From contig JAQUTY010000002.1 of assembly GCA_028694155.1 (NCBI GenBank), positions 160,115 to 224,114 on the forward strand: a DNA stretch of 64,000 bases. Direction: 5' to 3'. Numbering within the stretch: the stretch's first letter is position 1; each line of letters starts with the position of its first letter. Shown here in pieces: positions 16,774 through 32,643 of the stretch. The notes below the pieces were generated by a model. That model ran no database searches. It had not been told where the DNA came from and saw only the letters and a list, made by a program, of their open reading frames with translations. The position numbers and the translations under genes were made by a program. This DNA is from Eubacteriales bacterium. Lineage in GTDB: Bacteria; Bacillota; Clostridia; Christensenellales; CAG-138.

Positions 16774-16783
16774 ACTGTCCCCG

Positions 16784-19331: not shown

Positions 19332-19379
19332 AAATCTTTAGAACCTCTAATTGTTGGTTTGTGCGAATTATGACCATTC

Positions 19380-19409: not shown

Positions 19410-19528
19410 CTAGTTGCGCTAAGAATTGAAGGACACTTTTGTCGGTATTTGGGACTTATTACCCATTTCGACACATTGCGTATAATAATTCACACTCTTG
19501 GCAATTAGTGTGTAAGAAAGGCGAAAAA

Positions 19529-20116: not shown

Positions 20117-20170
20117 AAGAATGATTTTGCCGTGCGGTTGTAGCCGCCGCCTAATCTTAGGGAGATAGAT

Positions 20171-20860: not shown

Positions 20861-20908
20861 GGCATAGCACCACAGAGCTTTTCAAATATTCATATAATAA
20901 TGAAACAA

Positions 20909-21931
20909 TCAGATGCTGTCTGTCGCTAGTGGGCATACGCTGTTGCGGCGAAGAAGGGTCACTGGCATGACAAGCTCTCGGCGTTCGATGGCTTGCTTGG
21001 ACTTCATTCGCTCGATAAGCATATTTGCGGCGCATACGCCCATCTCGGTTGTCGGACGGTCTATGACGGTTATGCTGGGCTGAAGCAGGGATGCGATGGG
21101 CTGATCGTCAAAGGACACCAGCGAGAAGTCGCGCCCAACGGTTAGCCCCAGCTCCTGTGCGGCTACAATCACACCCGAACAGATAAGGTTGTTGCCGGCA
21201 ATGACTGCGGTGGGTCTGTCCGAAAGCTCAAACAGCTTGAGCATCAGGCGATAGCCGTCCTCCTCATACAAATCTCCGCGCGCAATGTATGCCTCGTTGA
21301 CAGGCACATCATAGTCGAGCATCGCCTTACGAAAACCAGCCAAACGCTCACGACCGATGTTCAGACGCTCATCGCCCGTAATAATTGCAATTTTGCGATG
21401 CCCTGCCGTGAGCAATTCCTCCGTCAGCTTATACACGCCTCCAAAGTTGTCCACCAGCACCGTGTCGTATGCGCAGTGGGACATACAGCGGTCGACCAGA
21501 ACGATTGGCTTTTGAAAGGACTCGTACTGCGTTGCATCATTTCCTGTGGGAATGATTATTGCGCCATCTACGGCATAGTCAAGCTGCTTTAGAATGGAGG
21601 CAATCTCGGTATGCTCCTTGTCGCCGGTGGACGTGACCATGGTGGAATAGCCTGCATCTCGCAAGGCTCGTTCTGCGCCCTGAATCACTGAGCCAAAGAA
21701 CCCGTTGATAAAGTCGGGAACGACAATAAGAATCAGCTTTGTCTGACCCGTCACAAGGAAAACGGCAAAATTATTTTGCACGAACCCCAGCTCGTCAACA
21801 GCCTGAAGAACCTTTTCTCTTGTTTGGGGACTGACCTTGTCCAGATTGTTCATCACACGAGACACGGTGGAAACGGCGACACCCGCCCTCTTTGCTATAT
21901 CTTTAATCGTTATCGGTTTGTTATCGGCCAC
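20909..21931 (-). CDS. LacI-family transcriptional regulator (monocistronic, divergent from the operon at 22.3 kb)
   Basis: N-terminal HTH ITIKDIAKRAGVAVSTVSRVMNN and a periplasmic-binding-protein-like sugar-sensor domain. Confidence 0.88.
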   Translation of the reverse strand: MADNKPITIKDIAKRAGVAVSTVSRVMNNLDKVSPQTREKVLQAVDELGFVQNNFAVFLVTGQTKLILIVVPDFINGFFGSVIQGAERALRDAGYSTMVTSTGDKEHTEIASILKQLDYAVDGAIIIPTGNDATQYESFQKPIVLVDRCMSHCAYDTVLVDNFGGVYKLTEELLTAGHRKIAIITGDERLNIGRERLAGFRKAMLDYDVPVNEAYIARGDLYEEDGYRLMLKLFELSDRPTAVIAGNNLICSGVIVAAQELGLTVGRDFSLVSFDDQPIASLLQPSITVIDRPTTEMGVCAANMLIERMKSKQAIERRELVMPVTLLRRNSVCPLATDSI

Positions 21932-22141
21932 AGTTAGCTTCTTTCATATTTCATTCTATGTAATAAGTATACGCTACGGATTAACGCCTGTCAATCGACT
22001 GAACACCGATTTCTTCCATATTCTCCAAATTATTTCTGAACAAATGATGGGCAAAAGGTGGGTCAAAAAAGTCGCATTTACTAAATTTTCGCTGAATTAT
22101 AGGGAAAATTCAGAAAACTGCAAAAAAATGTAGAAAAATCG

Positions 22142-22209
22142 AAACGTTTTTATTGACAAACGAAATTCCACATGCTATATTCATAACATACAAAAGGAAA
22201 AACGTTTTT
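22142..22209 (+). promoter_or_regulatory. Consensus-like promoter bracketed by two AAACGTTT-core palindromes (candidate LacI-family operators)
   Basis: TTGACA (22153-22158), 17-nt spacer, TATATT (22176-22181). Palindrome AAACGTTT lies at 22142-22149 and AAAAACGTTTTT at 22198-22209. A central CG flanked by A/T arms is the usual LacI/CcpA operator design. Confidence 0.6.
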
Positions 22210-22318
22210 ATGCAATAATTATGCAGCGGAGCAATCCGCTTGCAGACATCACAGGACGCCGTGCCAAGCGAAGGTGCGGCAAAAAAAATTATTAGTAAAG
22301 CGTTTTATCAGGAGGGGT

Positions 22319-23353
22319 ATGATGCGAGCGACGATCAAGGACGTAGCCAAGCGGGCGAACTGCTCGATCACCGCAGTCTCCTTTGCCTTCAATGGGAAGG
22401 CGGACAAGATTTCCGAGGAGACGCTGCATCACATTCAAACGGCGGCAAAGGATTTGGACTATCGACCAAACAAGCTGGCGGCAGGGCTTGCAACGGGGCA
22501 ATCACGCACGATTGGGTTAATTATTCCCGATAATCGGAATCCGTTCTTTGGGACGATTCTAAACTATGTGGAGGATTACGCCGACAAAGCAGGATTTCGG
22601 GTCATTTCGGGAAATACGGGAGACTGCATTGCAAAAGACTTGGAATACATTGACGCATTGCTCAGCTATTGCACGGCAGGATTGGTGATTGTTCGGTCAA
22701 ATTCGGGGTCGTCGGAGGAGCAGGAACGATTACTAAACAGGATTAGGCACCTGTCAATCCCCACCGTTGCAATCGACCGCAGGATTGTGGGAAGCGACAT
22801 ACCCACCTTTGTGGTGGACAATCGCTTGGGAGGGTATCTGGCGACAGAACACCTTTTGAAACTGGGTCATCGGCGCATTGGATGCTATTCGGGGCCACTG
22901 TATGCGCTAAGCGCACAGATGCGGCTGGAGGGGTACAAAAACGCCTTGGAGGAATACGGAGTTCCTTTTTGTGAGGAGCTGGTGTTCGAGGGCAACTATC
23001 AGATTTCATCGGACGATGCACCGAGTCGCTTCTTTTTTGAACGTGGGGTAACGGCGGTATTTGCACACAACGATATGCAGGCATACGGTTTGTACAGATA
23101 CGCACAGGCATATGGGCAGAGAATTCCCCAAAACCTTTCGATAGTGGGCTTTGACGATTTGGATTTCAGCACGATTCTTACACCCACGCTAACGAGCATT
23201 CGTTATCCGCTGGAGACACTCACAAAAGATGCGGTACAGCATTTAATTAACCTTATTGGCAACGGCGGTAAAGAGGGAAACGCCACGGAGCATTACACAA
23301 AGTACGCACCCGAGCTGGTTGTTCGTCAAAGCGTGCAGAGGCTGAACGGATAA
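22319..23353 (+). CDS. LacI-family transcriptional regulator, first gene of the ten-gene operon
   Basis: HTH ATIKDVAKRANCSITAVSFAFNG. The start at 22319 (MMRATIKD) follows AGGAGGGG. The track ORF starts at 22274. Confidence 0.85.
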   Translation: MMRATIKDVAKRANCSITAVSFAFNGKADKISEETLHHIQTAAKDLDYRPNKLAAGLATGQSRTIGLIIPDNRNPFFGTILNYVEDYADKAGFRVISGNTGDCIAKDLEYIDALLSYCTAGLVIVRSNSGSSEEQERLLNRIRHLSIPTVAIDRRIVGSDIPTFVVDNRLGGYLATEHLLKLGHRRIGCYSGPLYALSAQMRLEGYKNALEEYGVPFCEELVFEGNYQISSDDAPSRFFFERGVTAVFAHNDMQAYGLYRYAQAYGQRIPQNLSIVGFDDLDFSTILTPTLTSIRYPLETLTKDAVQHLINLIGNGGKEGNATEHYTKYAPELVVRQSVQRLNG

Positions 23354-23428
23354 AAAAGCCTCATTGATTTCGGTGTTACATGTGGGAGAGCATGTGCATA
23401 AATAACACAACACAAAGGAGAAGAAACA

Positions 23429-24253
23429 ATGAAAAAAGTCTTAGCAACTATTATGGCACTCGCACTTATGGTTGCCTGTCTGGCAGGCTGCGCAGGCGGA
23501 AACACTGCAACAACGGCAACGGAAGCTGTCAACTCTTATGACAGAATCCAAAAGAACGGATACATGACCGTTGGTATCGATCCTACAATCGAGAACATCA
23601 TCTTCACCGAGGCGGGAGAAACAGAGCCCACCGGCTTTATCCCTGACATCGTTCGCGGATTTGCAGAGCAGTTGGGCGTTGAAGTACGCTGGGAAATTCT
23701 GGAGTGGTCCGCCATGCTGACCGCTGTCAATACCGGCAAGGTTGACTTCATTGCAGCAAACATGAACATGCGTCTTGACCGTGAAGCCGCCATCGACTTC
23801 TCTGATCCGTGGCTGGTCGACTCGGCAATGTGGTGCGTTGCAAAGGATTCCAAGTATCAGACTGTTGAAGACCTCCAAGAGCCCGGCACAAAGTTTGGTA
23901 TCGCTTCCGGTTCGGTCTACGAAGCATTGATTGCGGAGCAGTTCCCGAATGCACAGATCGTCGTTTTGCCGTTGGGCACATGGCAGGAGTCATTGGCATC
24001 AGGCGTCATTGATGTATCCATGGATGACAGCATCGTGTTTGCAGGCCCCATGACAGAGAACGAGAACCTGCGCCTCTTGGCGGATCGTGGCGAGTCCTAC
24101 CTGTACGGCTTTGCATTTGCAAGTGGCGACAAGACCGTCGAAGTATTCAATCTGTATCTGACAAAGCTCAAGGCATTCGGAACCTATGCACAGCTGTTTA
24201 AGACATGGATGGGCTTTGACTGGGCACCCATCACCGCAGGCGTTGCTTATTAA
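23429..24253 (+). CDS. Polar-amino-acid-type ABC transporter substrate-binding lipoprotein (SBP family 3)
   Basis: Lipobox LAGCAGG. GKVDFIAANMNMRLDREAAIDFSDPW matches the family-3 pattern GKxDxxxxxMxxTxERxxxxDFSxPY. Confidence 0.85.
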   Translation: MKKVLATIMALALMVACLAGCAGGNTATTATEAVNSYDRIQKNGYMTVGIDPTIENIIFTEAGETEPTGFIPDIVRGFAEQLGVEVRWEILEWSAMLTAVNTGKVDFIAANMNMRLDREAAIDFSDPWLVDSAMWCVAKDSKYQTVEDLQEPGTKFGIASGSVYEALIAEQFPNAQIVVLPLGTWQESLASGVIDVSMDDSIVFAGPMTENENLRLLADRGESYLYGFAFASGDKTVEVFNLYLTKLKAFGTYAQLFKTWMGFDWAPITAGVAY

Positions 24254-24272
24254 TTAAGCATTAAGGCATCAA

Positions 24273-24312
24273 GAGGGACGATTAGCGTCCACATGGATTG
24301 CAATCGTCCCTC
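24273..24312 (+). promoter_or_regulatory. Intra-operon stem-loop after the binding-protein gene
   Basis: GAGGGACGATT (24273-24283) and AATCGTCCCTC (24302-24312) form a perfect 11-bp stem with an 18-nt loop. No clear U-tract follows. This would fit an mRNA stabiliser or partial attenuator giving excess binding protein. Confidence 0.5.
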
Positions 24313-24391
24313 GCAATTTGAAGTACTTGCACAGATACGGCGCGTGAGTCCATGCGTCTGAGAATCCTTTTAGAACAAGGAGCGTAAAAGA

Positions 24392-25084
24392 ATGAATTTC
24401 GGAGTCATAATCAAGTATTGGCCAAGACTCTGGAGCGGCTTGCAGCTTACCTTGCTGTACTCTGCTATTGCGATTGTACTTGCAATAGTATGGGGCGTTC
24501 TGATCGGGGCGATCAGTTATCGCAAACCGCCGGTAATCGGTCAAATCACAAGAGCATATGTGTGCTTCTTTAGGGAAACACCCCTGCTCGTCCAGCTATA
24601 CTTTCTATTTTATGGAGTCTCTCGCTATATATCCGTACCGGCAGGTTTTATCGGAGTATTGGCATTGGTTCTCAACGATGGCGCGTTCATTGCTGAGATT
24701 GTGCGCGGAGGTCTGCAGAGCCTAGACCCCGGGCAAAGAGAGGCGGCCCTTTCATTGGGCTTTAATGAGTTTCAAACCATGATCTACTTCCTTATACCGC
24801 AGGCATGGAAGAAGGTTTTGGACTCCTTGATAAACATGATGTCAATCATCATCAAGGACACTTCGATGCTGATGTGGATTACAATTTGTGAATTGAACTA
24901 TCAGTGTAACCAAGTCAACATTTACAGCTTCGATCCAATCAGCGCATACATGTTTGGCGCAGCAGTTTACCTTGCGCTGTTCCTCATAGTGCAGGGAGTG
25001 CGCAGACTTATCAAGGTGCGCAGCAATCGGATCGACAAGCGCCTTAATATGAAAACTAATAAGGAGGAGGTGCTAAACGTATGA
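24392..25084 (+). CDS. Amino acid ABC transporter permease (HisM/GlnP type)
   Basis: Polytopic, with the EAA loop REAALSLGFNEFQTMIYFLIPQA. Confidence 0.85.
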   Translation: MNFGVIIKYWPRLWSGLQLTLLYSAIAIVLAIVWGVLIGAISYRKPPVIGQITRAYVCFFRETPLLVQLYFLFYGVSRYISVPAGFIGVLALVLNDGAFIAEIVRGGLQSLDPGQREAALSLGFNEFQTMIYFLIPQAWKKVLDSLINMMSIIIKDTSMLMWITICELNYQCNQVNIYSFDPISAYMFGAAVYLALFLIVQGVRRLIKVRSNRIDKRLNMKTNKEEVLNV

Positions 25085-25731
25085 CGTGGGAAGAACGTTT
25101 CTTAGTTCTAAAGACGATGTTTGTACAGGGAATGCCAATGACGCTTAAACTCATTGGAGCATCACTCCTATTTGCCTTATTGATAGGCATTGTCCTAGGC
25201 ACTGTCCGCAGCATGAAAATCCCCGTGGTAGACCAGATATTGGGCGCATACGCCCTAATCTGTCGTGGCATACCCACCATCATTATCCTGCTGTTCTTCT
25301 ACGCCTACTTCACCCGTGGAACACAGTTTTGGATATCCGTACTCGCCATCTCGATGGTGGAGGGTGCGTACATGATGGAGATTGTAAAGGGCGGATATTT
25401 GTCAGTTGACAAGGGACAATGGGAGGCGGCAGATTCGGTGGGGCTTCCACGCCTGTACACGATTACTCGCATTGTGCTTCCTCAGGTCATGCTGGTCATT
25501 GTGCCTGCTTTGATGGGACAGATTGTCATGCTGGTCAAGGGCACTTGCGTTGCGGCAACAATCGGCTGCATGGACGTATTGCGCAGGGCGCAGCTCCTGT
25601 TGCCTAAATATTCGTATCCGCTTGAGATATACGCATACATTCTGGTCATCTTCTTTGTAATGTGCCATTTCCTTACTTGGCTTGGAAAGAAGCTCGAGCG
25701 AACTGTAGTCAAAAGAATTATTGGAGATTGA
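25081..25731 (+). CDS. Amino acid ABC transporter permease (second subunit)
   Basis: Polytopic, with the EAA loop WEAADSVGLPRLYTITRIVLPQV. It overlaps the previous gene by 4 nt. Confidence 0.85.
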   Translation: MTWEERFLVLKTMFVQGMPMTLKLIGASLLFALLIGIVLGTVRSMKIPVVDQILGAYALICRGIPTIIILLFFYAYFTRGTQFWISVLAISMVEGAYMMEIVKGGYLSVDKGQWEAADSVGLPRLYTITRIVLPQVMLVIVPALMGQIVMLVKGTCVAATIGCMDVLRRAQLLLPKYSYPLEIYAYILVIFFVMCHFLTWLGKKLERTVVKRIIGD

Positions 25732-25734
25732 GTT

Positions 25735-26481
25735 ATGGAAAATAATGACAGAGAAATTGTCGTTTCCTTGCAAAATGTTGTAAAAAAGTTCGGACACCTT
25801 ACGGTGCTTGACGACATGAGCTTGGATGTGTACGAGCATGAAACGGTGGTTCTGTGCGGCCCGTCAGGCGGCGGCAAGAGCACTCTTTTGAGAACCATCA
25901 ACGGGTTGGAGCGCATTAACAGCGGAAAGATTATCTACCGTGGCACCGAGGTGACACACAGAAACATTCACTCCATTCGCAAGCACATTGGCATGGTGTT
26001 TCAGTCGTTCAACCTTTTCAGCAATCTGTCGGTAAAAGACAATCTGCTGATTGCGCCCTGCAAAACTTTGGGCAAGGACAAAAAAGAGATGCTCAAAAAG
26101 GCGAGCGATTACCTTGAGCTGTTTGGAGTGGCGGACAAGATGGACGCCTATCCTCATCAGCTTTCGGGCGGACAGAAGCAAAGAATTGCCATCGTGCGTT
26201 CTTTGATGATGGAGCCGGATTTAATGCTCTTTGACGAGCCAACCTCTGCGCTCGACCCCGAAATGATAAAGGAAGTACTGGATGCCATTCGCAGACTGTC
26301 CCAGCAGGGCATGACGATGATTATCGTCACCCACGAGATGGGGTTTGCCCGAGAGGTTGCTTCCCGAATCTGCTTCCTCGAAAGTGCCAAGATTCGTGTC
26401 GATACAGATACAAAGAGCTTCTTTGGCGACACGCAGGACGAGAGATTGCAACAGTTCTTATCGGTGATTTTGCACCACTGA
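25735..26481 (+). CDS. Amino acid ABC transporter ATP-binding protein (GlnQ type)
   Basis: Walker A GPSGGGKST, signature LSGGQKQR and Walker B LMLFDEPTSALD. Confidence 0.9.
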   Translation: MENNDREIVVSLQNVVKKFGHLTVLDDMSLDVYEHETVVLCGPSGGGKSTLLRTINGLERINSGKIIYRGTEVTHRNIHSIRKHIGMVFQSFNLFSNLSVKDNLLIAPCKTLGKDKKEMLKKASDYLELFGVADKMDAYPHQLSGGQKQRIAIVRSLMMEPDLMLFDEPTSALDPEMIKEVLDAIRRLSQQGMTMIIVTHEMGFAREVASRICFLESAKIRVDTDTKSFFGDTQDERLQQFLSVILHH

Positions 26482-26497
26482 GAAAGGCAAGAACGAC

Positions 26498-27649
26498 ATG
26501 CTTAACGAGCAATTAAGAACGGCATGGATCGAGATTGACAAGGAGCGTCTAAACGGCAATATTGCTGCGGTCAAACAGCGTGTGGGCAGCAGCAAGATTA
26601 TCGGAGTAGTTAAGGCAAACGCCTATGGACACGGTGCCGTAGGCGTTGCCACAGCGTACTTGGACGCAGGAGTCGATATTCTGGCGGTGGCTACTCTGTC
26701 CGAAGCGGAGCAGCTGCGTCAAGCAGGAATACGCTGCCGCATAGTGATGATGGGACTGGTTCCCGACGAGCTTGCTCAGGCTGCTGCAAGGATTGATGTA
26801 ATTCCTCTGATTTCGACCCTATCCTGTGCCGAAGCCTTTTCCAAAATCGGAGTGGAACAGAAGCGAGTAATTGAGCTGATGATTACGGTGGACACGGGCA
26901 TGGGACGCATCGGATTTCTTCCCAATGAAGAAGCGGTGGACGAAGTGGCGAAGATTGCCAAACTGCCAAATGTGTGCTTGTATGGCTTGATGACACACTT
27001 TTCATCGGCAGATATGGAAGATTTGGCGTATACCTACTACCAGAAGGAACGGTTCGACACATTCTACGGAATGTTGAAGGCACGAGGAATAAACATTCCG
27101 CTTAGGACGGCCGCCAACAGTCCGACCGTATTTCGACTGCCGGACGCCTTTTACGAGGCGGTGCGCCCCGGAACAATTATTTGGGGCTGCTATCCTGCCT
27201 GCGTTAAAGACCATGACACGGTTAAGGTCAAGCCGATAATGTCGGTCAAATGCAAGGTGATTTACGTCAAGACCGTTCCGCAGGGGACTGCAATCAGCTA
27301 CGGCCGCAAATTTGTGACCGAGCGTGAAAGCGTCATTGCAACATTGCCGTTGGGCTATGCGGACGGCTACACCAGAACGCTGCTCAATAAGAGCCGTGTA
27401 CTTATCCACGGAGAGTATGCTCCTGTTCTTGGCACAATCTGCATGGATCAGATAATGGTGGACGTGACGGATATTCCAAATGTGGGTATCGGTGACGAAG
27501 CCGTAATTTTAGGCAGACAGGGCGCGCGAGAGATACCCGTTGAGGAGCTGGAAAGGGCGTCTGGGCTATGTTCGGGAGAGCTGTTTTTCGGCTTTTCCTG
27601 CCGACTGCCGATTAGATTTGTAACCAATAAAGAGAATGATTTGCTCTAA
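26498..27649 (+). CDS. alr: Alanine racemase-family PLP enzyme embedded in the operon
   Basis: The PLP-lysine motif VVKANAYGHGA is present. LPLGYADGY and GTICMDQIMVD match the Alr family. Confidence 0.85.
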   Translation: MLNEQLRTAWIEIDKERLNGNIAAVKQRVGSSKIIGVVKANAYGHGAVGVATAYLDAGVDILAVATLSEAEQLRQAGIRCRIVMMGLVPDELAQAAARIDVIPLISTLSCAEAFSKIGVEQKRVIELMITVDTGMGRIGFLPNEEAVDEVAKIAKLPNVCLYGLMTHFSSADMEDLAYTYYQKERFDTFYGMLKARGINIPLRTAANSPTVFRLPDAFYEAVRPGTIIWGCYPACVKDHDTVKVKPIMSVKCKVIYVKTVPQGTAISYGRKFVTERESVIATLPLGYADGYTRTLLNKSRVLIHGEYAPVLGTICMDQIMVDVTDIPNVGIGDEAVILGRQGAREIPVEELERASGLCSGELFFGFSCRLPIRFVTNKENDLL

Positions 27650-27673
27650 GAGCAATAAATATAAGGAGGATTT

Positions 27674-28870
27674 ATGAAAAAGCGTATATCAAGGGCAGGG
27701 TCCTGTCTGGAACGTTCATCTATTCGACTGTTTTTTGAAAAGCAGTGCCGCATCGCCGCAACCTGTGACGATGTCATCTCTTTCACCATTGGAGAACCCG
27801 ATTTCATCACACCGCCAAACATTCGTCAGGCGTGCATTGATGCAATCAACGCCGGCAAGACCAAGTATGCACCCAATGCAGGATTGACCGAGCTGAAGCA
27901 AGCCGTCTCCCGTTCGGTGAAAAAGATATACGGACGTGATTACGATGCCGAGACCGAGATTGTAATTACCAACAGCGGCATGGACTCCTTGCGCTTGACC
28001 TTTGCAGCCATTTTGGACGAGGGCGATGAGGTTTTGATGGGCGACCCTGCTTGGGCAAACCACCCCAACCACCCCGTTTTGGCAGGTGGTGTGTCGGTGC
28101 GTGTACCTCTGTATGAGGAGAACAACTTCACCTATCGCATTGAGGATTTGGAAAAGGCACTCACACCTCGCACAAAGGCAATTCTGCTCAACTACCCCAA
28201 CAATCCCACCGGTGCAGTATTGCGCTATGAGGATTTGGTGAAAATCTGCGATTTTGCAAAGGAGCATGACCTGTACGTTATTTCCGATGACGCATATTAC
28301 CGCATCATCTTTGACAATGAGAAGTATTGGAGCCCCGTCATGCTGGAGGGCATGAAGGAGCGCACCCTGATTTTACAGACATTCTCAAAGACCTATGCCA
28401 TGACCGGTTGGCGTTTGGGCTATATTGCCGGCCCGGCAGACCTGATTGAAGCCATTGGCAAGATTAACGAGAACTCCTGCTCCTGCGTAAATACCATGGT
28501 GCAGTGGGCAGGCATTGAAGCTCTTGAGGGCAAGGACACCCCTGCCGAGGTGGAGGCAATGGTAAGGGAGTTTCAGCACCGCAGGGATATAGTGTTCGAT
28601 ATGATTAACAAGATTCCGGGGCTGTCCTGTGCAAAGCCGCGCGGAGCGTTCTATGCGTTTATCAATATCAAAGAGACTGGCATTAAGTCCGCTGATTTCT
28701 CCAATCATCTGCTTGAAAAATACCATGTGGGAATGACCCCCGGGACAGGCTTTGGCGCAAGCGGCGAGGGCTATGTGCGCATGTCGTACGCTACCTCCAC
28801 CGACAAGATAATCGAGGGAATAAACCGCATTGCCGCCTTCGTAAAAGAAGAAACAAAGAACAACGACTGA
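27674..28870 (+). CDS. Class I/II pyridoxal-phosphate aminotransferase (AspC-like)
   Basis: FTIGEPDF, the Y-A-P-N-A-G context and the PLP-lysine motif SFSKTYAMTGWRLGY are present. Confidence 0.85.
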   Translation: MKKRISRAGSCLERSSIRLFFEKQCRIAATCDDVISFTIGEPDFITPPNIRQACIDAINAGKTKYAPNAGLTELKQAVSRSVKKIYGRDYDAETEIVITNSGMDSLRLTFAAILDEGDEVLMGDPAWANHPNHPVLAGGVSVRVPLYEENNFTYRIEDLEKALTPRTKAILLNYPNNPTGAVLRYEDLVKICDFAKEHDLYVISDDAYYRIIFDNEKYWSPVMLEGMKERTLILQTFSKTYAMTGWRLGYIAGPADLIEAIGKINENSCSCVNTMVQWAGIEALEGKDTPAEVEAMVREFQHRRDIVFDMINKIPGLSCAKPRGAFYAFINIKETGIKSADFSNHLLEKYHVGMTPGTGFGASGEGYVRMSYATSTDKIIEGINRIAAFVKEETKNND

Positions 28871-28885
28871 CAAAAGGAGAAAGCC

Positions 28886-29791
28886 ATGAAACATCTTAAT
28901 GATATAGTGATTCCGATTATTACTCCCCTTACCGAGAACGACACCATTGATGTACCTTCTTTGGAGCGTCTTACCGAGTACATGATAAGCAAGGGCGTTG
29001 ACTGCCTGTACCCCTGCGGCACGACAGGCGAAATGGTCTATCTGACGGACGAGGAGAGAATGTTGGTTACGGAAACTGTCGTTCGCACGGCAAAGGGCAG
29101 GGTAACTGTCTTTGCACAGGTGGGTGCTGCCAATACTGCTTCTACCATCAAACTGGCGCAGCACGCAGTAGCCTGCGGAGCAGACGGCATAGGCGTTGTG
29201 ACACCTTGGTATTTCCAGCTTTCCGACAAGGCGTTGGTTGATTATTACTGTGAAGTGAGCCAAAGCGTTCCCGATGACTTCCCCATATACCTTTATTCCA
29301 TACCGCAGAACGCAGTCAACGATATCAATGCCGATACAGCAGAAAAGATTGCACAAAAGTGCAAAAACGTGCTGGGCATAAAGTACAGCTATCCCAACAT
29401 GACCCGCTTGCAGGAAATGATGACCGTGCGTGGCGGAGATTTTGACGTGCTTGTCGGGCCGGACCATCTCTATGAGGCTCTGGTTGCAGTTGGCGGCAAG
29501 GGTGTTGTATCGGGCAATGCCATGATTATCCCCGAGCATTACATTGCGGTGCGTGATGCCATGGCAAAGGGCGATTGGCAGACAGCAACCAAAGCGCAAC
29601 GCCGCACCAACATACTCAATTCAATTCTCTGCGCAAAGAACAACATCGGCTGCTATAAGGTTGTGCTCAAGGATTTGGGTGTAATATCCACCACGAAGAT
29701 GAGAAAGCCGATGGAGGAGGTCTCTGCGGACGATGCAAAGAAGCTGCTTGCAGATTTGTGTCTGGCAGACTATAAAAACGTGCGCCTGTGA
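28886..29791 (+). CDS. DapA/NanA-family class I pyruvate aldolase-like enzyme (probably not a dihydrodipicolinate synthase)
   Basis: The family motifs CGTTGEM and the Schiff-base lysine context LGIKYSYP are present. The DHDPS motif YN(V/I)PxRT reads YSIPQNA here, so the substrate-binding Arg is replaced by Asn. Confidence 0.75.
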   Translation: MKHLNDIVIPIITPLTENDTIDVPSLERLTEYMISKGVDCLYPCGTTGEMVYLTDEERMLVTETVVRTAKGRVTVFAQVGAANTASTIKLAQHAVACGADGIGVVTPWYFQLSDKALVDYYCEVSQSVPDDFPIYLYSIPQNAVNDINADTAEKIAQKCKNVLGIKYSYPNMTRLQEMMTVRGGDFDVLVGPDHLYEALVAVGGKGVVSGNAMIIPEHYIAVRDAMAKGDWQTATKAQRRTNILNSILCAKNNIGCYKVVLKDLGVISTTKMRKPMEEVSADDAKKLLADLCLADYKNVRL

Positions 29792-29837
29792 GCTATACGC
29801 CGGTAGATTTTAGCACAGAAGCAACGGAGGTGGACAT

Positions 29838-30830
29838 ATGAACCGCAAACCAAAGATTTTAGTCGTGGGCAGCTTTGTCATGGATCATTTTGCTTTGACA
29901 CGGGTGTTTCCCAAACAGGGAGAAACCGTGCTGGGTGAAACCATGCGAAAGGCACCCGGCGGCAAGGGCGCAAATCAGGCAGTGCAGGCAGCACGCCTTG
30001 GCGCACAAGTAACCATGATAGGCAAGCTGGGACGTAATGCGGACGGAGACAATATGCGCATCGCCTGTCAGAATGCAGGCATCGACACAAGCCATATCGT
30101 GTATGACGACAAGGCAGCTACCGCATGTTCGTTTATCATTTTAGAGCCGCTTGCCGATGGTTCAATAGCCAACCGAATCATTGTTATACCTGGTGCGAAT
30201 ATGACAATAAAGGCATCGGAGATTGAGCATCTCAAAGATAGCATCGGTCAGTATGACATGGTAATTTTGCAGCTTGAGATACCCATGGAGATAAACTGCC
30301 TTGTTGCCGAATATGCGGCCGCTGCAGGAGTACCCGTGATGCTCAACCCTGCACCCAGCGATGAGCTGCCACCAAAGCTGATCCAAAAGCTGACATACAT
30401 TTCGCCCAACGAGCACGAAGCGTGCAGCATGACGGGGGTAGAGATACCAAATGAGACGGACAACTTCTCCCTTGACAGCGCACAGGCGGCGGCGCAGGTG
30501 CTGCGTGACAGAGGCGCAAGCGATGTAATAATCACGCTTGGCGGAAGTGGTGCTGTGGACCTAAACGACAAGGGCTTGCACTATTCCCCCTGCGTGCCAA
30601 ATACTCGCTCTGTCGATCCCACTGCAGCAGGAGATTCCTTTGTGGCGGCATTCTGCTGTGCAACCTGCATCGGCATGGAAGCGGAAGATGCGCTGTGCTT
30701 TGCAAACCACACGGCGTCCATCACGGTATCAAGACCGGGAGCAATGCCCTCTCTGCCAACGCTTGACGAGGTGGAACAGCATTTGCAAGCAAAGGGGAAG
30801 CATCTGCCTTATTTGGACAGACTTCGCTGA
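29838..30830 (+). CDS. Ribokinase-like PfkB-family sugar kinase
   Basis: GSFVMDHF...FPKQGETVLGE...APGGKGANQAVQAARLG, SPNEHEA and DPTAAGDSFVAAF are colinear with the RbsK motifs. Confidence 0.8.
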   Translation: MNRKPKILVVGSFVMDHFALTRVFPKQGETVLGETMRKAPGGKGANQAVQAARLGAQVTMIGKLGRNADGDNMRIACQNAGIDTSHIVYDDKAATACSFIILEPLADGSIANRIIVIPGANMTIKASEIEHLKDSIGQYDMVILQLEIPMEINCLVAEYAAAAGVPVMLNPAPSDELPPKLIQKLTYISPNEHEACSMTGVEIPNETDNFSLDSAQAAAQVLRDRGASDVIITLGGSGAVDLNDKGLHYSPCVPNTRSVDPTAAGDSFVAAFCCATCIGMEAEDALCFANHTASITVSRPGAMPSLPTLDEVEQHLQAKGKHLPYLDRLR

Positions 30831-30841
30831 AGGAGACGGAC

Positions 30842-31453
30842 ATGGATAAGGAACGCAAAGTGCTGCTGGAAAACTATCTAAAGACAGCACAGGAAGAATT
30901 TAACAGCATCATTGCGTCTGTTGATGAGAATGCGCTAAATGAGGCGGCGGAGCTGATTCGCCTTGCCCAACGTGACGGCAAGCGACTGCACGTTTCGGGC
31001 ATTGGCAAGCCGGCGCACATAGCAGGCTATGCTGCATCGCTGCTTTCATCGACAGGGACGCCGACCTATTTTTTGCACGGAACGGAAGCGGTACATGGCT
31101 CCTGCGGACAACTGGTTGAGGGAGATGTGGTGATTTTCATTTCCAACAGCGGAGAAACGGCAGAGATGCGAGCAACGGTCGATGCAATCAAGAATAACGG
31201 CTGCAAAGTGATTGGAATAACTCGTGATGCGTCCTCGTGGCTGGCAAAAAAGAGTGACGTGCATCTGACGGCACACGCAAGTCAAGAGGGCGGGCCGCTT
31301 AATCGGGCACCAAGAATGTCTATAATTGCCGAAACGCTTGTGCTTCAGGCGCTGAGCATTGTTTTGCAGGCAGATATAGATTTGACCCCAAAGCAATACA
31401 TCAAGTGGCATCCCGGCGGAAAGCTGGGAGAGCTTCGGAAGGAGGAAACATAA
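30842..31453 (+). CDS. Single-SIS-domain sugar-phosphate isomerase, KdsD/KpsF (arabinose-5-phosphate isomerase)-like, without CBS domains
   Basis: GIGKPAHIAGYAASLLSSTGTPTYFLHGTEAVHGSCG...FISNSGET...WHPGGKLG is colinear with my recollection of E. coli KdsD ([37 protein letters not shown]...SNSGES...SHPGGALG). The protein ends about 10 residues after HPGG. Confidence 0.7.
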   Translation: MDKERKVLLENYLKTAQEEFNSIIASVDENALNEAAELIRLAQRDGKRLHVSGIGKPAHIAGYAASLLSSTGTPTYFLHGTEAVHGSCGQLVEGDVVIFISNSGETAEMRATVDAIKNNGCKVIGITRDASSWLAKKSDVHLTAHASQEGGPLNRAPRMSIIAETLVLQALSIVLQADIDLTPKQYIKWHPGGKLGELRKEET

Positions 31454-31863
31454 TGCTGACAACTCAATGTATACACCCTCAGATAATGGCGACTCTTGCA
31501 CATTGCGGACACGGAAGCAAGATTCTCATTGCGGACGGTAATTATCCGGTCAAGGAGAAAAGCGGCGATGCCGAAAAGGTATATTTGGGTCTTAGCCGTG
31601 GAATACCTACTGCTACCGATGTACTATCCGCACTTCATACGGTTGTAGAGTTTGAGAGCGCAACAGTAATGACTCCCAATGAAGGACCTGAACCCGAAGT
31701 CTTTGAGGAGTTTAGAAAAGAATTGAACGGAATGAGCTTGAGCACATTGGATCGTTACGCATTCTATGAGGCATGCATGGAGCAGGGCGCAGTAGCATTG
31801 GCTATCAGCACGGGCGAACAGCGCACCTTTTCCTGCATTCTGCTGACGATTGCCTGCGCTTAA
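31453..31863 (+). CDS. RbsD/FucU-family sugar mutarotase/pyranase
   Basis: MLTTQCIHPQIMATLAHCGHGSKILIADGNYP and RYAFYEA...STGEQRTFSCILL parallel FucU (LAEMGHGDEIIFSDAHFP, RFAFYERA...TGERAKYGNILL). The ATG overlaps the upstream TAA (TAATG) after AGGAGG. The track ORF starts at 31405. Confidence 0.75.
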   Translation: MLTTQCIHPQIMATLAHCGHGSKILIADGNYPVKEKSGDAEKVYLGLSRGIPTATDVLSALHTVVEFESATVMTPNEGPEPEVFEEFRKELNGMSLSTLDRYAFYEACMEQGAVALAISTGEQRTFSCILLTIACA

Positions 31864-31953
31864 AACGTTCATCAACCTTGCCAAGTGCGATTTTTTAGAT
31901 TCCTTCCCTTAAACATCTAATTGAACATCGCATTTGGCAGATCCCCCCCAATT

Positions 31954-31992
31954 TCGACCTCCACGGCGTATACAAAGCGGCGTGGAGGTCGA
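31954..31992 (+). terminator. Strong hairpin at the end of the ten-gene operon (no U-tract)
   Basis: TCGACCTCCACG (31954-31965) and CGTGGAGGTCGA (31981-31992) form a perfect 12-bp stem with a 15-nt loop. The following sequence is ACAACAAAG, so an intrinsic-terminator role is uncertain. Confidence 0.4.
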
Positions 31993-32014
31993 ACAACAAA
32001 GAAAGGCGGACTGA

Positions 32015-32266
32015 ATGGGCTTCTTTGACGGAAGAAGAAAAGATGATGACAGCGGAGAGCAGCTTGCGGTGGGCATGGAACTCCCTCGTGTCTATTACCT
32101 GCTAGGGCCACCCGAAGAGCGAATAGACAATGCAGACGGATTCACAATGGTTTGGGTAAAGACAAATTTGGCAGGAGTGTTCCGTGGCAGCATTAAAAAG
32201 AAGGTAACACGAGTAGTATTTAAGGAAAAACGCGTTGTCTCGTGGACTGTTGAGGGCGACGACTAG
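32015..32266 (+). CDS. Small hypothetical protein (BamE/SmpA-like fold suspected)
   Basis: 83 aa with GAAAGGCGGA upstream. GMELPRVYYLLGPPEE...VVFKEKRVVSW resembles the small beta-meander pattern GMTxxQVxxLLGxP...FxNGKVxS. Confidence 0.4.
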   Translation: MGFFDGRRKDDDSGEQLAVGMELPRVYYLLGPPEERIDNADGFTMVWVKTNLAGVFRGSIKKKVTRVVFKEKRVVSWTVEGDD

Positions 32267-32604: not shown

Positions 32605-32643
32605 TTTTCTTTCTCCTTAATATTAGTTATACTTATTACATCG

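What the first reader, a model, noticed from the sequence alone, without database searches (positions are those of the whole stretch)
22142..31992. Ten-gene LacI-headed operon joining an amino-acid import/racemase/aminotransferase module to an aldolase/pentose-kinase/A5P-isomerase/mutarotase module: candidate undescribed catabolic pathway
**Seen in sequence.** One promoter (22153-22181) is followed by ten same-strand genes with gaps of 75, 138, -4, 3, 16, 24, 15, 46, 11 and -1 nt, ending at a 12-bp hairpin. The order is:
- LacI regulator
- family-3 (polar amino acid) binding lipoprotein
- two permeases and an ATPase
- Alr-type racemase (KANAYGHG)
- class I aminotransferase (SFSKTYAMTGWRLGY)
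- DapA/NanA-family aldolase lacking the DHDPS arginine
- ribokinase-like kinase
- CBS-less KdsD/KpsF-like SIS isomerase
- FucU/RbsD mutarotase

I know of no characterised pathway with this set.

**Model A (inference).** A gamma-hydroxylated, sugar-derived alpha-amino acid is imported and racemised to the L-form. It is transaminated to a 4-hydroxy-2-oxo acid and cleaved by the class I aldolase to pyruvate plus a pentose. The same logic is established for 4-hydroxyglutamate, which goes to 4-hydroxy-2-oxoglutarate and then to a DapA-family HOGA aldolase. The pentose is then anomerised, phosphorylated and isomerised into the pentose-phosphate pathway.

**Model B (inference).** The sugar half salvages KDO or D-arabinose. 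KDO aldolase chemistry gives D-arabinose plus pyruvate. D-arabinose is a known structural analog of L-fucose, which fits a FucU-type mutarotase. A ribokinase-like enzyme would make arabinose-5-P and the KdsD-like isomerase would yield ribulose-5-P.

**Alternative.** Amadori (glycated amino acid) use is possible. The known deglycases are double-SIS proteins, unlike this one.
Basis: partly seen in the sequence, partly recalled or inferred. Interest (0 to 1): 0.72.

Follow-up and report, generated by a model that had tools for sequence, protein, structure and literature searches.

The report
Operon for a sugar-like amino acid
A gut Clostridia bacterium carries an 11-gene operon that most likely imports an unidentified sugar-derived amino acid, strips its amino group, splits it into pyruvate plus a five-carbon sugar (probably D-arabinose), and feeds that sugar into central metabolism; no described pathway matches it.

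Summary
There are eleven same-strand genes (22322-31863): LacI plus ten others. All ten stated gaps are exact. The promoter, the family assignments and a terminal hairpin are confirmed; the hairpin has no T-tract.

The same 11-gene order recurs at 49-94% identity in at least four other lineages with different flanks, so it is one selected unit.

Comparative genomics resolves it into two parts joined at the aldolase:
- **Front end:** amino-acid importer, aminotransferase and DHDPS-family aldolase. This core also occurs with LivK-type importers. In one such case it is followed by a different sugar back end: FucI-like isomerase, Dak kinases and RpiB.
- **Back end:** ribokinase-like kinase, single-SIS arabinose-5-P isomerase and RbsD. 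This module is widespread in gut Clostridia, usually behind TRAP or sugar importers and DHDPS-family aldolases.

The "alanine racemase" lacks the two residues that restrict Alr to alanine. The binding protein keeps the alpha-amino-acid clamp. The SIS protein keeps all five KdsD catalytic residues.

**Best reading:** a D/L 2-amino-4-hydroxy polyol acid (an amino analogue of Kdo) is converted to a 2-keto-3-deoxy acid. That acid is cleaved to pyruvate plus D-arabinose, which goes to A5P and then Ru5P.

The parts
22153..22181 (+). Sigma-70-type promoter: TTGACA, 17 nt, TG-extended TATATT
   Evidence: Scores 11/12 in the promoter scan; sequence read.
22141..22151 (.). Operator-like half-palindrome with an AAACGTTT core, abutting the -35 box (candidate LacI site O1)
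   Evidence: AAACGTTT occurs only 3 times in 64 kb, and two of those flank this promoter.
22198..22209 (.). Perfect 12-bp palindrome AAAAACGTTTTT just downstream of the -10 box (candidate LacI site O2)
   Evidence: The same motif lies upstream of the orthologous clusters L017, L009 and L014; the consensus is about GTAAAACGTTTTAC.
22295..22308 (.). GTAAAGCGTTTTAT, a third operator-like site just before the LacI ribosome-binding site
   Evidence: It is present twice in L017.
22322..23353 (+). LacI-family repressor, 343 aa
   Evidence: PF00356 plus Peripla_BP_1/3. The best NCBIfam hits (RbsR, PurR, CytR) are all far below cutoff. 81%, 52% and 49% identical in L017, L009 and L014.
23429..24253 (+). 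Family-3 (polar amino acid type) substrate-binding lipoprotein
   Evidence: PF00497. Keeps the equivalents of GlnBP R75 and D157, the alpha-carboxylate/alpha-ammonium clamp. The pocket is polar (N68, N70, D156, W50) and invariant in orthologues. No solved close relative with an informative ligand.
24273..24312 (+). Strong stem-loop directly after the SBP stop codon, with no T-tract; probably an mRNA-stabilising or partly attenuating hairpin
   Evidence: RNA fold of 24254-24391: -45.6 kcal/mol, z = -3.87, 0 of 200 shuffles fold as well. The function is inferred.
24392..25084 (+). ABC permease 1 (HEQRo 3-TM type)
   Evidence: PF00528. TIGR01726 scores 80.7, above its cutoff of 42.2.
25081..25731 (+). 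ABC permease 2
   Evidence: PF00528. TIGR01726 scores 52.7, above its cutoff of 42.2.
25735..26481 (+). ABC ATPase (GlnQ/EhuA-like)
   Evidence: PF00005. GlnQ scores 271 bits, below its cutoff of 379.
26498..27649 (+). Fold-type III PLP racemase of the Alr family with an enlarged side-chain pocket
   Evidence: PF01168 plus PF00842; TIGR00492 scores 333, above its cutoff of 168. K39, Y265, R136, R219 and H166 are kept. K129 is T/A and Y354 is G in all five cluster orthologues.
27674..28870 (+). Class I (subgroup Ib-like) PLP aminotransferase
   Evidence: PF00155. The best solved relative is the P. horikoshii Asp/aromatic aminotransferase, E 2e-97. The Lys that binds the distal carboxylate in Thermus-type AspAT is Met here (GMD motif), conserved in all architectures.
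28886..29791 (+). DHDPS/NanA-family class I pyruvate aldolase; the hinge between the two halves
   Evidence: PF00701. dapA scores 192, below its cutoff of 206. GTTGE, Y133 and the Schiff-base K161 are kept; R138 is N across the whole clade. Homologues at 60-68% identity sit with TRAP, 2-hydroxyacid dehydrogenase, ILVD_EDD, Dak, FucI or aminotransferase genes.
29838..30830 (+). Ribokinase-like PfkB kinase of a distinct subfamily; proposed D-arabinose 5-kinase
   Evidence: TIGR02152 scores 278, below its cutoff of 299.65. Position N14 of RbsK is V in 54 of 59 family members and I251 is T in 59 of 59; the other ribose and ATP residues are kept. A kinase lies next to the SIS gene in 74 of 80 loci.
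30842..31453 (+). Single-SIS, CBS-less arabinose-5-phosphate-isomerase-like protein
   Evidence: PF01380. KpsF, KdsD and GutQ models match only over the SIS domain. The best solved match is 5uqi, E 1e-29. KdsD K59, H88, E111, E152 and H193 are conserved here and in 55 of 55 relatives.
31453..31863 (+). RbsD/FucU-family pyranase/mutarotase
   Evidence: PF05025. Weak matches to both the D-ribose pyranase and the L-fucose mutarotase equivalogs: 38 and 32 bits against cutoffs of 93 and 141.
31879..31993 (+). Two stem-loops that close the operon (31879-31939, and 31953-31993 with a 13-bp G+C-rich stem); no T-tract follows
   Evidence: Sequence. Fold: -55 kcal/mol, z = -7.4. Not called by the terminator scan.

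Best explanation
This is a LacI-repressed catabolic operon for an imported, polyhydroxylated alpha-amino acid that exists in both D and L forms.

**Proposed steps (all inferred, none assayed)**
1. A family-3 ABC system takes up the amino acid.
2. An Alr-fold racemase with a widened pocket converts the D form to the L form.
3. A class I aminotransferase turns it into a 4-hydroxy-2-oxo (2-keto-3-deoxy) sugar acid.
4. The DHDPS-family class I aldolase cleaves this to pyruvate plus a free aldopentose, most likely D-arabinose. That would make the oxo-acid Kdo-like and the nutrient its 2-amino analogue, a 2-amino-2,3-dideoxy-octonic acid.
5. RbsD/FucU supplies the furanose form.
6. The ribokinase-like kinase makes D-arabinose 5-phosphate.
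7. The single-SIS isomerase converts that to D-ribulose 5-phosphate for the pentose-phosphate pathway.

**What the sequence shows directly**
- gene order and spacing
- the family of each protein
- retention of catalytic residues
- conservation of the cluster as a unit
- modular reuse of its two halves

**What is inferred**
- the identity of the substrate
- the identity of the pentose
- the direction of flux
- the role of the operator-like sites
For: **1. One unit.** The 11 genes occur in the same order in L017 (81-94% identity), L009-L011 (52-84%) and L014 (49-82%). L012 carries the racemase-to-RbsD part, cut by the contig end (80-94%). The flanks are unrelated, and in L009-L011 the cluster sits in a mobile-element context.

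**2. The front-end core is real.**
- Aminotransferase orthologues (62-67% identity) sit next to an aldolase of this family behind LivK-type amino-acid ABC importers and a PucR regulator. This is seen in Ca. Egerieimonas (aldolase 60% identical to the window's) and, with a more distant aldolase (42%), in Lientehia NSJ-141.
- In L102 the aminotransferase (55%) sits next to the orthologous family-3 ABC system, whose SBP is 58% identical.

**3. The aldolase product is a sugar.**
- In L103/L104 the importer-aminotransferase-aldolase set runs straight on into Dak1, Dak2, RpiB-like, FucI-like and another Dak gene.
- An isomerase-plus-kinase route from D-arabinose to Ru5P is proposed for a D-arabinan gene cluster (PMC10509167).

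**4. The back end is an autonomous module tied to aldolases.**
- Of 80 loci found with the SIS protein, 74 have the kinase adjacent and 42 have RbsD.
- 34 have a DHDPS-family gene within 9 kb, often with TRAP or sugar ABC importers, YhcH/DUF386 or BNR_2. Three have GH172, a family that includes exo-alpha-D-arabinofuranosidases.
- L046 joins a TRAP system, an aldolase 63% identical to the window's, the kinase and the SIS protein.

**5. Residues.**
- The SIS protein keeps all five KdsD catalytic residues, and its best solved relative is a single-SIS isomerase.
- The aldolase keeps the Schiff-base Lys and the Tyr/Thr triad but lacks R138.
- The racemase keeps its catalytic residues. It has T/A in place of carbamylated K129 and G in place of the gatekeeper Y354 in all orthologues.
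- The SBP keeps the alpha-amino-acid clamp, and its pocket is rich in Asn, Asp and Trp.
- The aminotransferase lacks the AspAT distal-carboxylate Lys, so a dicarboxylic substrate such as 4-hydroxyglutamate is less likely.

**6. Regulation.** Operator-like palindromes flank the promoter and recur upstream of orthologous clusters.
Against: - No natural 2-amino-2,3-dideoxy-aldonic acid is known to me, and none turned up in the literature searches.
- The cluster is rare. The exact aldolase is on 3 contigs, and the JGI metagenome scan found no relatives.
- The sugar-half genes of the different cluster versions are only 58-66% identical. That is barely closer than copies from unrelated clusters, so the halves may have been joined or exchanged more than once.
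- The L099/L101 clusters have no sugar genes, so their aldehyde product may be small.
- L040 joins a family-3 ABC system directly to kinase-SIS-RbsD with no racemase, aminotransferase or aldolase. The model does not explain this.
- The assignment of D-arabinose rather than D-ribose or a tetrose rests on family resemblance and context, not on specificity data.
- The L103 RpiB-like protein also resembles D-erythrulose-4-P isomerase.
- Class I aminotransferase-fold enzymes can be lyases rather than transaminases.
Confidence: 0.45

Rival explanations
1. Two separate functions share one transcript. The importer, racemase, aminotransferase and aldolase degrade a gamma-hydroxy amino acid to pyruvate plus a small aldehyde such as glyoxylate, glycolaldehyde or acetaldehyde. 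The kinase, SIS and RbsD genes independently salvage a free pentose (D-arabinose or D-ribose) that enters by another transporter.
For: - Each half exists on its own elsewhere: aminotransferase plus aldolase without sugar genes in L099/L101, and kinase-SIS-RbsD without amino-acid genes in most of 80 loci.
- Between cluster versions the two halves differ in conservation: 72-84% for the front end against 58-66% for the back end.
Against: - All eleven genes stay together, in order and tightly spaced, in at least four other lineages with different flanks. One of these is cargo of a mobile element.
- A second, unrelated sugar back end follows aminotransferase-aldolase in L103/L104.
- DHDPS-family aldolases sit within 9 kb of the kinase-SIS module in 34 of 80 loci, so the aldolase belongs to both halves.
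- The operon encodes no sugar transporter.
Confidence: 0.2
2. The chemistry is the same from the 2-keto-3-deoxy acid onward, but the nutrient is a 2-amino-2-deoxy-aldonic (glycosaminic) acid. The 'aminotransferase' is in fact a PLP ammonia-lyase that eliminates the 3-hydroxyl and the amino group, as in D-glucosaminate catabolism. The racemase epimerises C2, because acids derived from natural amino sugars have the D-amino-acid configuration.
For: - Glycosaminic acids are real natural alpha-amino acids with polyol side chains and D configuration at C2. This would explain both the racemase and the polar SBP pocket.
- The class I aminotransferase fold includes beta-lyases, and weak Beta_elim_lyase and Cys_Met_Meta_PP hits are present.
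- That D-glucosaminate goes to KDG and then to an aldolase is established chemistry (my knowledge; not checked here).
Against: - The common glycosaminic acids are C6. They would yield glyceraldehyde, not a pentose, which leaves kinase, SIS and RbsD without a role.
- The protein's closest relatives are true transaminases.
- No characterised glucosaminate lyase belongs to this family, as far as I know.
Confidence: 0.12
3. The operon uses a glycated (Amadori-type) amino acid. The family-3 system imports a ketosyl-amino acid. RbsD opens the pyranose, the kinase phosphorylates it, and the SIS protein acts as a deglycase that releases a sugar phosphate and the amino acid. The racemase, aminotransferase and aldolase then degrade that amino acid.
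For: - Frl/Fra systems use a PfkB kinase plus a SIS-fold deglycase, and family-3 binding proteins are known to bind Amadori opines (my knowledge).
- L040 couples a family-3 ABC system, whose SBP keeps the Arg/Asp clamp, directly to kinase-SIS-RbsD.
Against: - The SIS protein has a single domain. It keeps all KdsD catalytic residues and gives no FrlB-type hit.
- The kinase scores 64 bits on the fructoselysine 6-kinase model (cutoff 247) against 278 bits on ribokinase.
- Orthologous kinase-SIS pairs lie in TRAP, aldolase, GH172 and sugar-ABC contexts with no amino-acid link.
- The aldolase would have no evident substrate.
Confidence: 0.08
4. This is Model B as written: Kdo itself (or another ulosonic acid) is the imported substrate. 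The racemase and aminotransferase only handle alanine and pyruvate, converting the pyruvate released by the aldolase to L- and D-alanine or the reverse.
For: - The downstream half fits Kdo going to pyruvate plus D-arabinose, then A5P, then Ru5P.
- The racemase passes the alr equivalog cutoff.
Against: - The racemase lacks K129 and Y354, the residues that shape the alanine pocket.
- The SBP keeps the alpha-ammonium-binding Asp.
- The aminotransferase travels with amino-acid importers in four architectures.
- Clusters that look like real ulosonic-acid users employ TRAP or sugar ABC importers instead.
Confidence: 0.07

Closest known systems
4-hydroxyglutamate to 4-hydroxy-2-oxoglutarate to pyruvate plus glyoxylate (the last steps of hydroxyproline catabolism; the HOGA1 aldolase is a DHDPS-family enzyme, PMC3188589)
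   Same: It has the same two-step logic: a class I aminotransferase makes a 4-hydroxy-2-oxo acid from a gamma-hydroxy amino acid, and a DHDPS-fold Schiff-base aldolase releases pyruvate.
   Different: - Here the aminotransferase lacks the Lys that binds the distal carboxylate.
- The aldolase clade is otherwise linked to sugar-acid genes.
- The operon adds a racemase and a three-gene pentose module, so the aldehyde is expected to be a sugar, not glyoxylate.
Single-SIS arabinose-5-phosphate isomerases: PDB 5uqi (I believe this is E. coli CFT073 c3406), B. fragilis 3etn, and the C. tetani enzyme of Cech et al. 2017
   Same: The protein is about 200 aa with one SIS domain and no CBS pair. All KdsD catalytic residues are kept. 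5uqi is the best solved match at E 1e-29.
   Different: The physiological role of those enzymes is, to my knowledge, unsettled. Here the gene sits in a fixed kinase-SIS-RbsD catabolic module. The two primary papers could not be read.
D-arabinose catabolism through L-fucose isomerase plus a kinase (E. coli fuc enzymes; D-arabinan gene clusters, PMC10115798 and PMC10509167)
   Same: The presumed input (free D-arabinose) and output (a pentulose phosphate) are the same. The related cluster L103/L104 uses exactly this type of back end behind the same aminotransferase and aldolase.
   Different: The window operon phosphorylates first and isomerises afterwards (aldose to aldose-5-P to ketose-5-P). 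It uses a ribokinase-like kinase and an A5P isomerase instead of FucI plus a ketose kinase.
Sialic acid (nan) clusters: transporter, NanA aldolase, sugar kinase, sugar-phosphate converting enzyme, YhcH
   Same: The architecture matches: import an acid, cleave it with a DHDPS/NanA-family aldolase to pyruvate plus an aldose, then phosphorylate and convert the aldose. Sister clusters of the back-end module even carry TRAP, YhcH and BNR_2 genes.
   Different: - The aldolase is below the NanA cutoffs.
- The kinase is PfkB, not ROK.
- The converting enzyme is a SIS isomerase, not NanE.
- The importer is for amino acids, and a racemase and aminotransferase precede the aldolase.
Ribose operon rbsDACBK-rbsR
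   Same: It combines a LacI-family repressor (the best NCBIfam hit is RbsR), an RbsD-family pyranase and a ribokinase-family kinase.
   Different: - All three proteins score below the equivalog cutoffs.
- Position N14 of RbsK is Val.
- There is no RbsABC sugar transporter.
- An A5P-type isomerase is added, which ribose use does not need.
Amadori-compound systems (E. coli frlABCD, Salmonella fra, B. subtilis frl)
   Same: They pair a PfkB kinase with a SIS-fold enzyme, together with uptake of an amino-acid conjugate.
   Different: The deglycases are double-SIS proteins of about 330 aa. Here the SIS protein has a single domain with API residues, and the kinase is far closer to ribokinase.

Membership tests
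4-hydroxy-tetrahydrodipicolinate synthase (DapA) | Reaches the equivalog score TIGR00674 | tested here: not met
   192.0 bits against a cutoff of 206.15.
4-hydroxy-tetrahydrodipicolinate synthase (DapA) | Arg138 (E. coli numbering), which binds aspartate semialdehyde | tested here: not met
   Asn in the window protein and in all 60-87% homologues.
DHDPS/NanA class I pyruvate aldolase superfamily | Schiff-base Lys161, Tyr133 and Thr44/Thr45 (the GTTGE motif) | tested here: met
   All are conserved. PF00701 matches at E 9e-62.
N-acetylneuraminate lyase (NanA) | Reaches the equivalog scores NF003164 / TIGR00683 | tested here: not met
   143.8 bits against 281, and 122.6 bits against 382.
Alanine racemase (Alr) | Equivalog score TIGR00492 and the catalytic Lys39/Tyr265 pair | tested here: met
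   333 bits against a cutoff of 168. K39, Y265, R136, R219 and H166 are conserved.
Alanine racemase (Alr) | Residues that shape the alanine-sized pocket: carbamylated Lys129 and Tyr354 (G. stearothermophilus numbering) | tested here: not met
   K129 is T/A and Y354 is G in all five cluster orthologues. Replacement of these positions is typical of non-alanine or broad-spectrum racemases (my knowledge).
Ribokinase (RbsK) | Reaches the equivalog score TIGR02152 and has the full set of ribose-contact residues | tested here: not met
   278.4 bits against a cutoff of 299.65. N14 is V and I251 is T across the subfamily. D16, K43, N46, E143 and D255 are kept.
Arabinose-5-phosphate isomerase, KdsD/GutQ/KpsF type | SIS domain followed by a tandem CBS pair; equivalog scores | tested here: not met
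   The protein is 203 aa with a SIS domain only. It scores 112 bits against 505 (KdsD), 101 against 481 (GutQ) and 121 against 204 (KpsF).
Arabinose-5-phosphate isomerase, single-SIS type (c3406 / B. fragilis / C. tetani) | About 200 aa, SIS domain only, with the KdsD catalytic residues K59, H88, E111, E152 and H193 | tested here: met
   All five residues are conserved here and in 55 of 55 relatives. Best solved matches are 5uqi (E 1e-29) and 3etn (E 5e-23). The activity itself is not testable with these tools.
Fructosamine deglycase / kinase (FrlB/FraB, FrlD) | A double-SIS deglycase and a kinase that reaches the fructoselysine 6-kinase model | tested here: not met
   The SIS protein has a single domain and gives no FrlB-type hit among 18 NCBIfam matches. 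The kinase scores 64.5 bits against a cutoff of 247 on NF007321.
Polar amino acid ABC importer (PAAT; family-3 SBP) | SBP_bac_3 fold with the Arg/Asp alpha-amino-acid clamp, and HEQRo-type permeases | tested here: met
   PF00497. TIGR01726 is above cutoff for both permeases. The equivalents of GlnBP R75 and D157 are kept. No specific equivalog is reached, so the ligand cannot be assigned.
LacI/GalR repressor with palindromic operator | HTH_LacI plus a periplasmic-binding-protein-like effector domain, and a CG-centred palindrome at the regulated promoter | tested here: met
   PF00356, PF00532 and PF13377. AAAAACGTTTTT and related sites lie at the promoter and upstream of orthologous clusters. 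Binding was not tested.
Aspartate aminotransferase, subgroup Ib | Equivalog score, and the Lys (Thermus K109) that binds the distal carboxylate | tested here: not met
   The best NCBIfam models are all below cutoff, for example 364 bits against 550. The position is Met, in the conserved GMD motif.

The most novel reading that the evidence does not exclude
Gut Clostridia catabolise a so far unrecognised class of nutrients: D/L 2-amino-3-deoxy sugar acids such as the 2-amino analogue of Kdo. They do so by racemisation, transamination and aldol cleavage. The kinase / single-SIS isomerase / RbsD trio found here and in dozens of gut genera is a missing phosphorylate-first D-arabinose route (D-arabinose to A5P to Ru5P). 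That route would also serve an undescribed Kdo catabolic pathway. If so, it would give gene identities to the orphan Kdo aldolase (EC 4.1.2.23) and a physiological role to the puzzling A5P isomerases of Gram-positive bacteria.
Probability: 0.3. Interest if true: 0.82.

Novelty: new variant of a known kind. Interest (0 to 1): 0.66.

Why it matters
If the model is right, three things follow.

1. **A new nutrient class.** It points to a kind of compound nobody has looked for in the gut: sugar-derived alpha-amino acids with both configurations at C2. These could be of chemical (food-processing) or microbial origin. The binding protein can be used directly to fish for the ligand.
2. **A role for Gram-positive A5P isomerases.** It explains why bacteria without LPS carry arabinose-5-phosphate isomerases. 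It also defines a compact, widespread D-arabinose module.
3. **Candidate genes for Kdo breakdown.** The sister clusters combine TRAP or ABC importers, a DHDPS-like aldolase, YhcH, BNR_2 and the same module. They are strong candidates for Kdo breakdown, that is, recycling of a universal LPS and pectin sugar by commensals. To my knowledge no genes have been assigned to this.

Every step is cheaply testable with purified proteins. If it is wrong, this is still a conserved, mobile, 11-gene operon of unknown substrate.

Tried and rejected
**Searches that led nowhere**
- The JGI metagenome scan with the aminotransferase found only two unrelated hits at 20-23% identity.
- Literature searches returned nothing at gene level. 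I searched for Kdo aldolase and catabolism, Kdo with TRAP, D-arabinose with A5P and ribokinase, gamma-hydroxy amino acid with DHDPS, and polyhydroxy amino acid with aldolase.
- Two searches failed on syntax.
- The papers on c3406 and the C. tetani isomerase are not held.
- PDB sequence searches gave no ligand clue for the SBP and no close aldolase relative.
- The inverted-repeat tool missed the A/T-rich operators.

**Ideas considered and dropped**
- Reverse diaminopimelate/lysine pathway: there is no DapB or DapF, and R138 is absent.
- Ectoine/hydroxyectoine use: only the transporter resembles Ehu, and it scores below cutoff.
- Opine use: there is no oxidase or dehydrogenase.
- S-ribosylhomocysteine or nucleoside-amino acids: there is no hydrolase, and C5 is blocked.
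- Sialic acid: the kinase and converter types are wrong.
- The divergent second LacI (20909-21931) as a co-regulator: it is not conserved with the cluster.

**Not attempted**
- Structure prediction and fold search were not run. No expected outcome would have discriminated between the models.
- A test of whether the sugar-half genes of the different cluster versions form one clade was inconclusive. Their best hits are only marginally each other.

Full report
**1. The observation**

The window holds eleven consecutive + strand genes between 22322 and 31863. In order they are a LacI-family regulator, a family-3 binding lipoprotein, two permeases, an ABC ATPase, an Alr-type racemase, a class I aminotransferase, a DHDPS-family protein, a PfkB kinase, a single-SIS protein and an RbsD/FucU protein.

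The title undercounts by one: it is LacI plus ten genes.

The promoter at 22153-22181 scores 11 of 12 with a TG extension. Promoter-like sites are not enriched over shuffles (20 against 16.3 +/- 4.4), so internal promoters are neither shown nor excluded.

Pfam and NCBIfam confirm every family. Apart from the generic permease subfamily-domain model TIGR01726, only the racemase reaches a curated NCBIfam cutoff (alr, an equivalog: 333 against 168). Ribokinase (278 against 300) and DapA (192 against 206) fall just short.

The terminal hairpin exists at 31953-31993 with a 13-bp stem, preceded by a second stem-loop. The region folds with z = -7.4. No T-tract follows, and the terminator scan did not call it. 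A strong hairpin also follows the SBP gene (24273-24312, z = -3.9).

**2. It is one conserved unit**

The exact aldolase is on only three contigs. However, the same eleven genes in the same order occur elsewhere:
- L017, an Oscillospiraceae MAG, at 81-94% protein identity;
- L009-L011, human gut assemblies, at 52-84%;
- L014, at 49-82%;
- L012, as far as the contig reaches.

The flanks differ in every case. In the window they are housekeeping genes. In L009-L011 the cluster lies between serine recombinases and ParA/ParB plus a giant helicase, so it is cargo of a mobile element.

A CG-centred palindrome (consensus about GTAAAACGTTTTAC) flanks the window promoter at 22141-22151, 22198-22209 and 22295-22308. 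It recurs upstream of the orthologous clusters. This fits regulation by the LacI protein.

**3. The back end is an autonomous, widespread module**

A scan of one genome per species with the SIS protein gave 80 loci, mostly Oscillospiraceae, Lachnospiraceae, other Clostridia and Treponema. Counts:
- 74 have the ribokinase-like kinase directly adjacent.
- 42 have RbsD.
- Only L017 has the amino-acid genes.

The recurrent partners are informative:
- 34 of 80 loci have a DHDPS-family gene within 9 kb.
- 15 combine a second type of DHDPS-like protein with a TRAP system or a sugar ABC importer.
- 11 carry YhcH/DUF386 and 6 carry a BNR_2 sialidase-like protein.
- 9 carry a D-2-hydroxyacid dehydrogenase.
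- 3 carry GH172. GH172 includes exo-alpha-D-arabinofuranosidases (PMC10115798, PMC10509167).

The SIS protein keeps all five catalytic residues of E. coli KdsD, as do 55 of 55 relatives. Its best solved match is a single-SIS phosphosugar isomerase, 5uqi, at E 1e-29.

The kinase family keeps the ribokinase catalytic and ATP residues. It differs constantly at two sugar-pocket positions: N14 is V and I251 is T.

The simplest reading is a route from free D-arabinose to its furanose form, then to D-arabinose 5-phosphate, then to D-ribulose 5-phosphate. On that reading the TRAP, YhcH, BNR_2 and aldolase clusters look like Kdo-type ulosonic-acid catabolism. I found no gene-level description of either. 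My literature access was limited.

**4. The front end is a real core, and the aldolase is the hinge**

Aldolase homologues at 60-68% identity sit with TRAP importers, 2-hydroxyacid dehydrogenases, an ILVD_EDD sugar-acid dehydratase, Dak kinases and FucI/FGGY genes. The clade therefore handles 2-keto-3-deoxy sugar acids. It keeps the Schiff-base Lys, Tyr133 and GTTGE, but has Asn for the DapA arginine.

Aminotransferase orthologues show four further contexts:
- 67% identity, in Ca. Egerieimonas: next to an aldolase 60% identical to the window's, behind a LivK-type amino-acid ABC importer and a PucR regulator.
- 62% identity, in Lientehia NSJ-141: the same arrangement, but with a more distant DHDPS-family aldolase (42% identical to the window's).
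- 55% identity, L102: next to the orthologous family-3 ABC system, whose SBP is 58% identical.
- 67% identity, L103/L104: importer, aminotransferase and aldolase (66%) run straight into Dak1, Dak2, an RpiB-like isomerase, a FucI-like isomerase and another Dak gene.

The last case is a second, unrelated way of processing a free aldose. A fucose isomerase is the dominant carbohydrate-active enzyme of Dysgonomonas grown on D-arabinan. An isomerase-plus-kinase route to Ru5P is proposed for a D-arabinan gene cluster. Two independent back ends behind the same aminotransferase-aldolase pair thus both fit D-arabinose.

**5. Residue-level clues to the substrate**

- **Racemase.** It keeps K39, Y265, R136, R219 and H166. 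It has Thr/Ala for the carbamylated Lys129 and Gly for the gatekeeper Tyr354 in all five cluster versions. It is a racemase, but not one built for alanine.
- **Binding protein.** It keeps the Arg and Asp that clamp the alpha-carboxylate and alpha-ammonium groups in GlnBP. Its pocket is lined with Asn, Asp and Trp and is invariant among orthologues. That fits an alpha-amino acid with a hydroxylated side chain.
- **Aminotransferase.** It has Met where Thermus-type AspAT has the Lys that binds the distal carboxylate. This GMD motif is conserved in all architectures. It argues against 4-hydroxyglutamate.

**6. Most likely mechanism, and what remains open**

The proposed sequence is:
1. import of a D/L polyhydroxy alpha-amino acid;
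2. racemisation to the L form;
3. transamination to a 2-keto-3-deoxy (4-hydroxy-2-oxo) acid;
4. aldol cleavage to pyruvate plus D-arabinose;
5. conversion to the furanose, phosphorylation to A5P and isomerisation to Ru5P.

Weak points:
- No such natural compound is known to me.
- The cluster is rare.
- The sugar-half genes of different cluster versions are hardly closer to each other than to copies elsewhere.
- L040 couples a family-3 importer directly to kinase-SIS-RbsD.
- The L103 RpiB-like protein also resembles D-erythrulose-4-P isomerase, so chain length may vary between clusters.

Rivals are: two co-transcribed but separate functions; a glycosaminic-acid route with a lyase instead of a transaminase; Amadori-compound use; and import of Kdo itself. 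Each is scored in its own section of this report. I put the main model at 0.45.

**7. Comparison with known systems, and novelty**

The front end works like 4-hydroxyglutamate to HOG to HOGA (PMC3188589). The whole operon is laid out like a nan cluster. The back end combines rbs-like parts with a c3406-type isomerase.

The proteins fail the membership tests for DapA, NanA, RbsK, KdsD/GutQ/KpsF, AspAT Ib and FrlB/FrlD. They pass only for the broad superfamilies and for the single-SIS isomerase type.

All parts are known enzyme kinds. The combination, the predicted substrate class and the phosphorylate-first D-arabinose route are not described, as far as I could find. I therefore call it a new variant of a known kind, with moderately high interest. 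The claim is cheaply testable with purified proteins and with cultured carriers of the two modules.

Noticed in passing
L042, L043, L049, L058, L062, L064, L078, L087 (TRAP type); L029, L052, L065, L083, L084, L093 (ABC type); each about 3-10 kb upstream of position 10001: These are recurrent clusters with one of two layouts:
- IclR, TRAP DctPQM, a divergent DHDPS-like protein (motif CQSSE instead of GTTGE), kinase, SIS, RbsD; or
- DHDPS-like protein, SBP_bac_1 ABC importer, BNR_2 sialidase-like protein, YhcH/DUF386, kinase, SIS, RbsD.

They look like an undescribed Kdo-type ulosonic-acid catabolic system in gut Clostridia and Treponema. They are candidates for the orphan Kdo aldolase.
   Followed up: partly
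L075, L076, L092: genes just upstream of the kinase (cluster c25, about 797 aa): A large protein with no Pfam match recurs directly upstream of the kinase-SIS pair. It may be an unrecognised glycoside hydrolase that releases the sugar the module uses.
   Followed up: partly
L009-L011, positions 1-3200 and 13600-20900: In these human-gut contigs the full 11-gene cluster lies between serine recombinases with a HepT/MNT toxin-antitoxin pair on one side and, in L009, ParA/ParB, LPD28, YodL and a 2641-aa SNF2-type helicase on the other. The operon therefore travels as cargo of a mobile element.
   Followed up: no
L040, 154-5393: A family-3 binding protein that keeps the Arg/Asp clamp, two permeases and an ATPase are followed after 95 nt by kinase, SIS and RbsD. 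No racemase, aminotransferase or aldolase is present. The main model does not explain this, and it is the best single argument for an amino-acid-sugar conjugate.
   Followed up: partly
window 32015-32266 (+): An 83-aa ORF with no Pfam or NCBIfam hit starts 22 nt after the terminal hairpin. An ORF of 84 aa occupies the same position after the cluster in L012, but none does in L009 or L014. It may be a small accessory gene of the closest cluster versions.
   Followed up: partly
window 20909-21931 (-), with a promoter-like site at 21994-21966: A second LacI-family regulator is transcribed divergently from the operon promoter. It is about 30% identical to the operon's LacI and does not accompany the cluster in L017, L009 or L014, so it is probably unrelated. 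TetR (19439-20116) and DUF6198 (20171-20860) genes lie beyond it.
   Followed up: partly
window 23390-23420: The 75-nt LacI-SBP spacer contains TTACAT, 16 nt, ATAAAT. This is conserved in L017 and may be a second, operator-free promoter for the structural genes. In L009 and L014 the operator-like sites lie in this spacer rather than upstream of LacI.
   Followed up: no
window 32263-33941 (-): An ArsR-family regulator, an ArsP_1-type permease and a small Thioredoxin_3 protein form a compact minus-strand unit just downstream of the operon.
   Followed up: no
L004 (Petroclostridium sp. X23), 6984-16242: The gene order is TRAP DctPQM, an aldolase 63% identical to the window's, a 2-hydroxyacid dehydrogenase, PfkB, a full-length L-fucose isomerase and an FGGY kinase. 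This is another candidate route from a 2-hydroxy or 2-keto-3-deoxy acid to a fucose- or D-arabinose-like aldose, and it sits in a cultured, fully sequenced strain.
   Followed up: no
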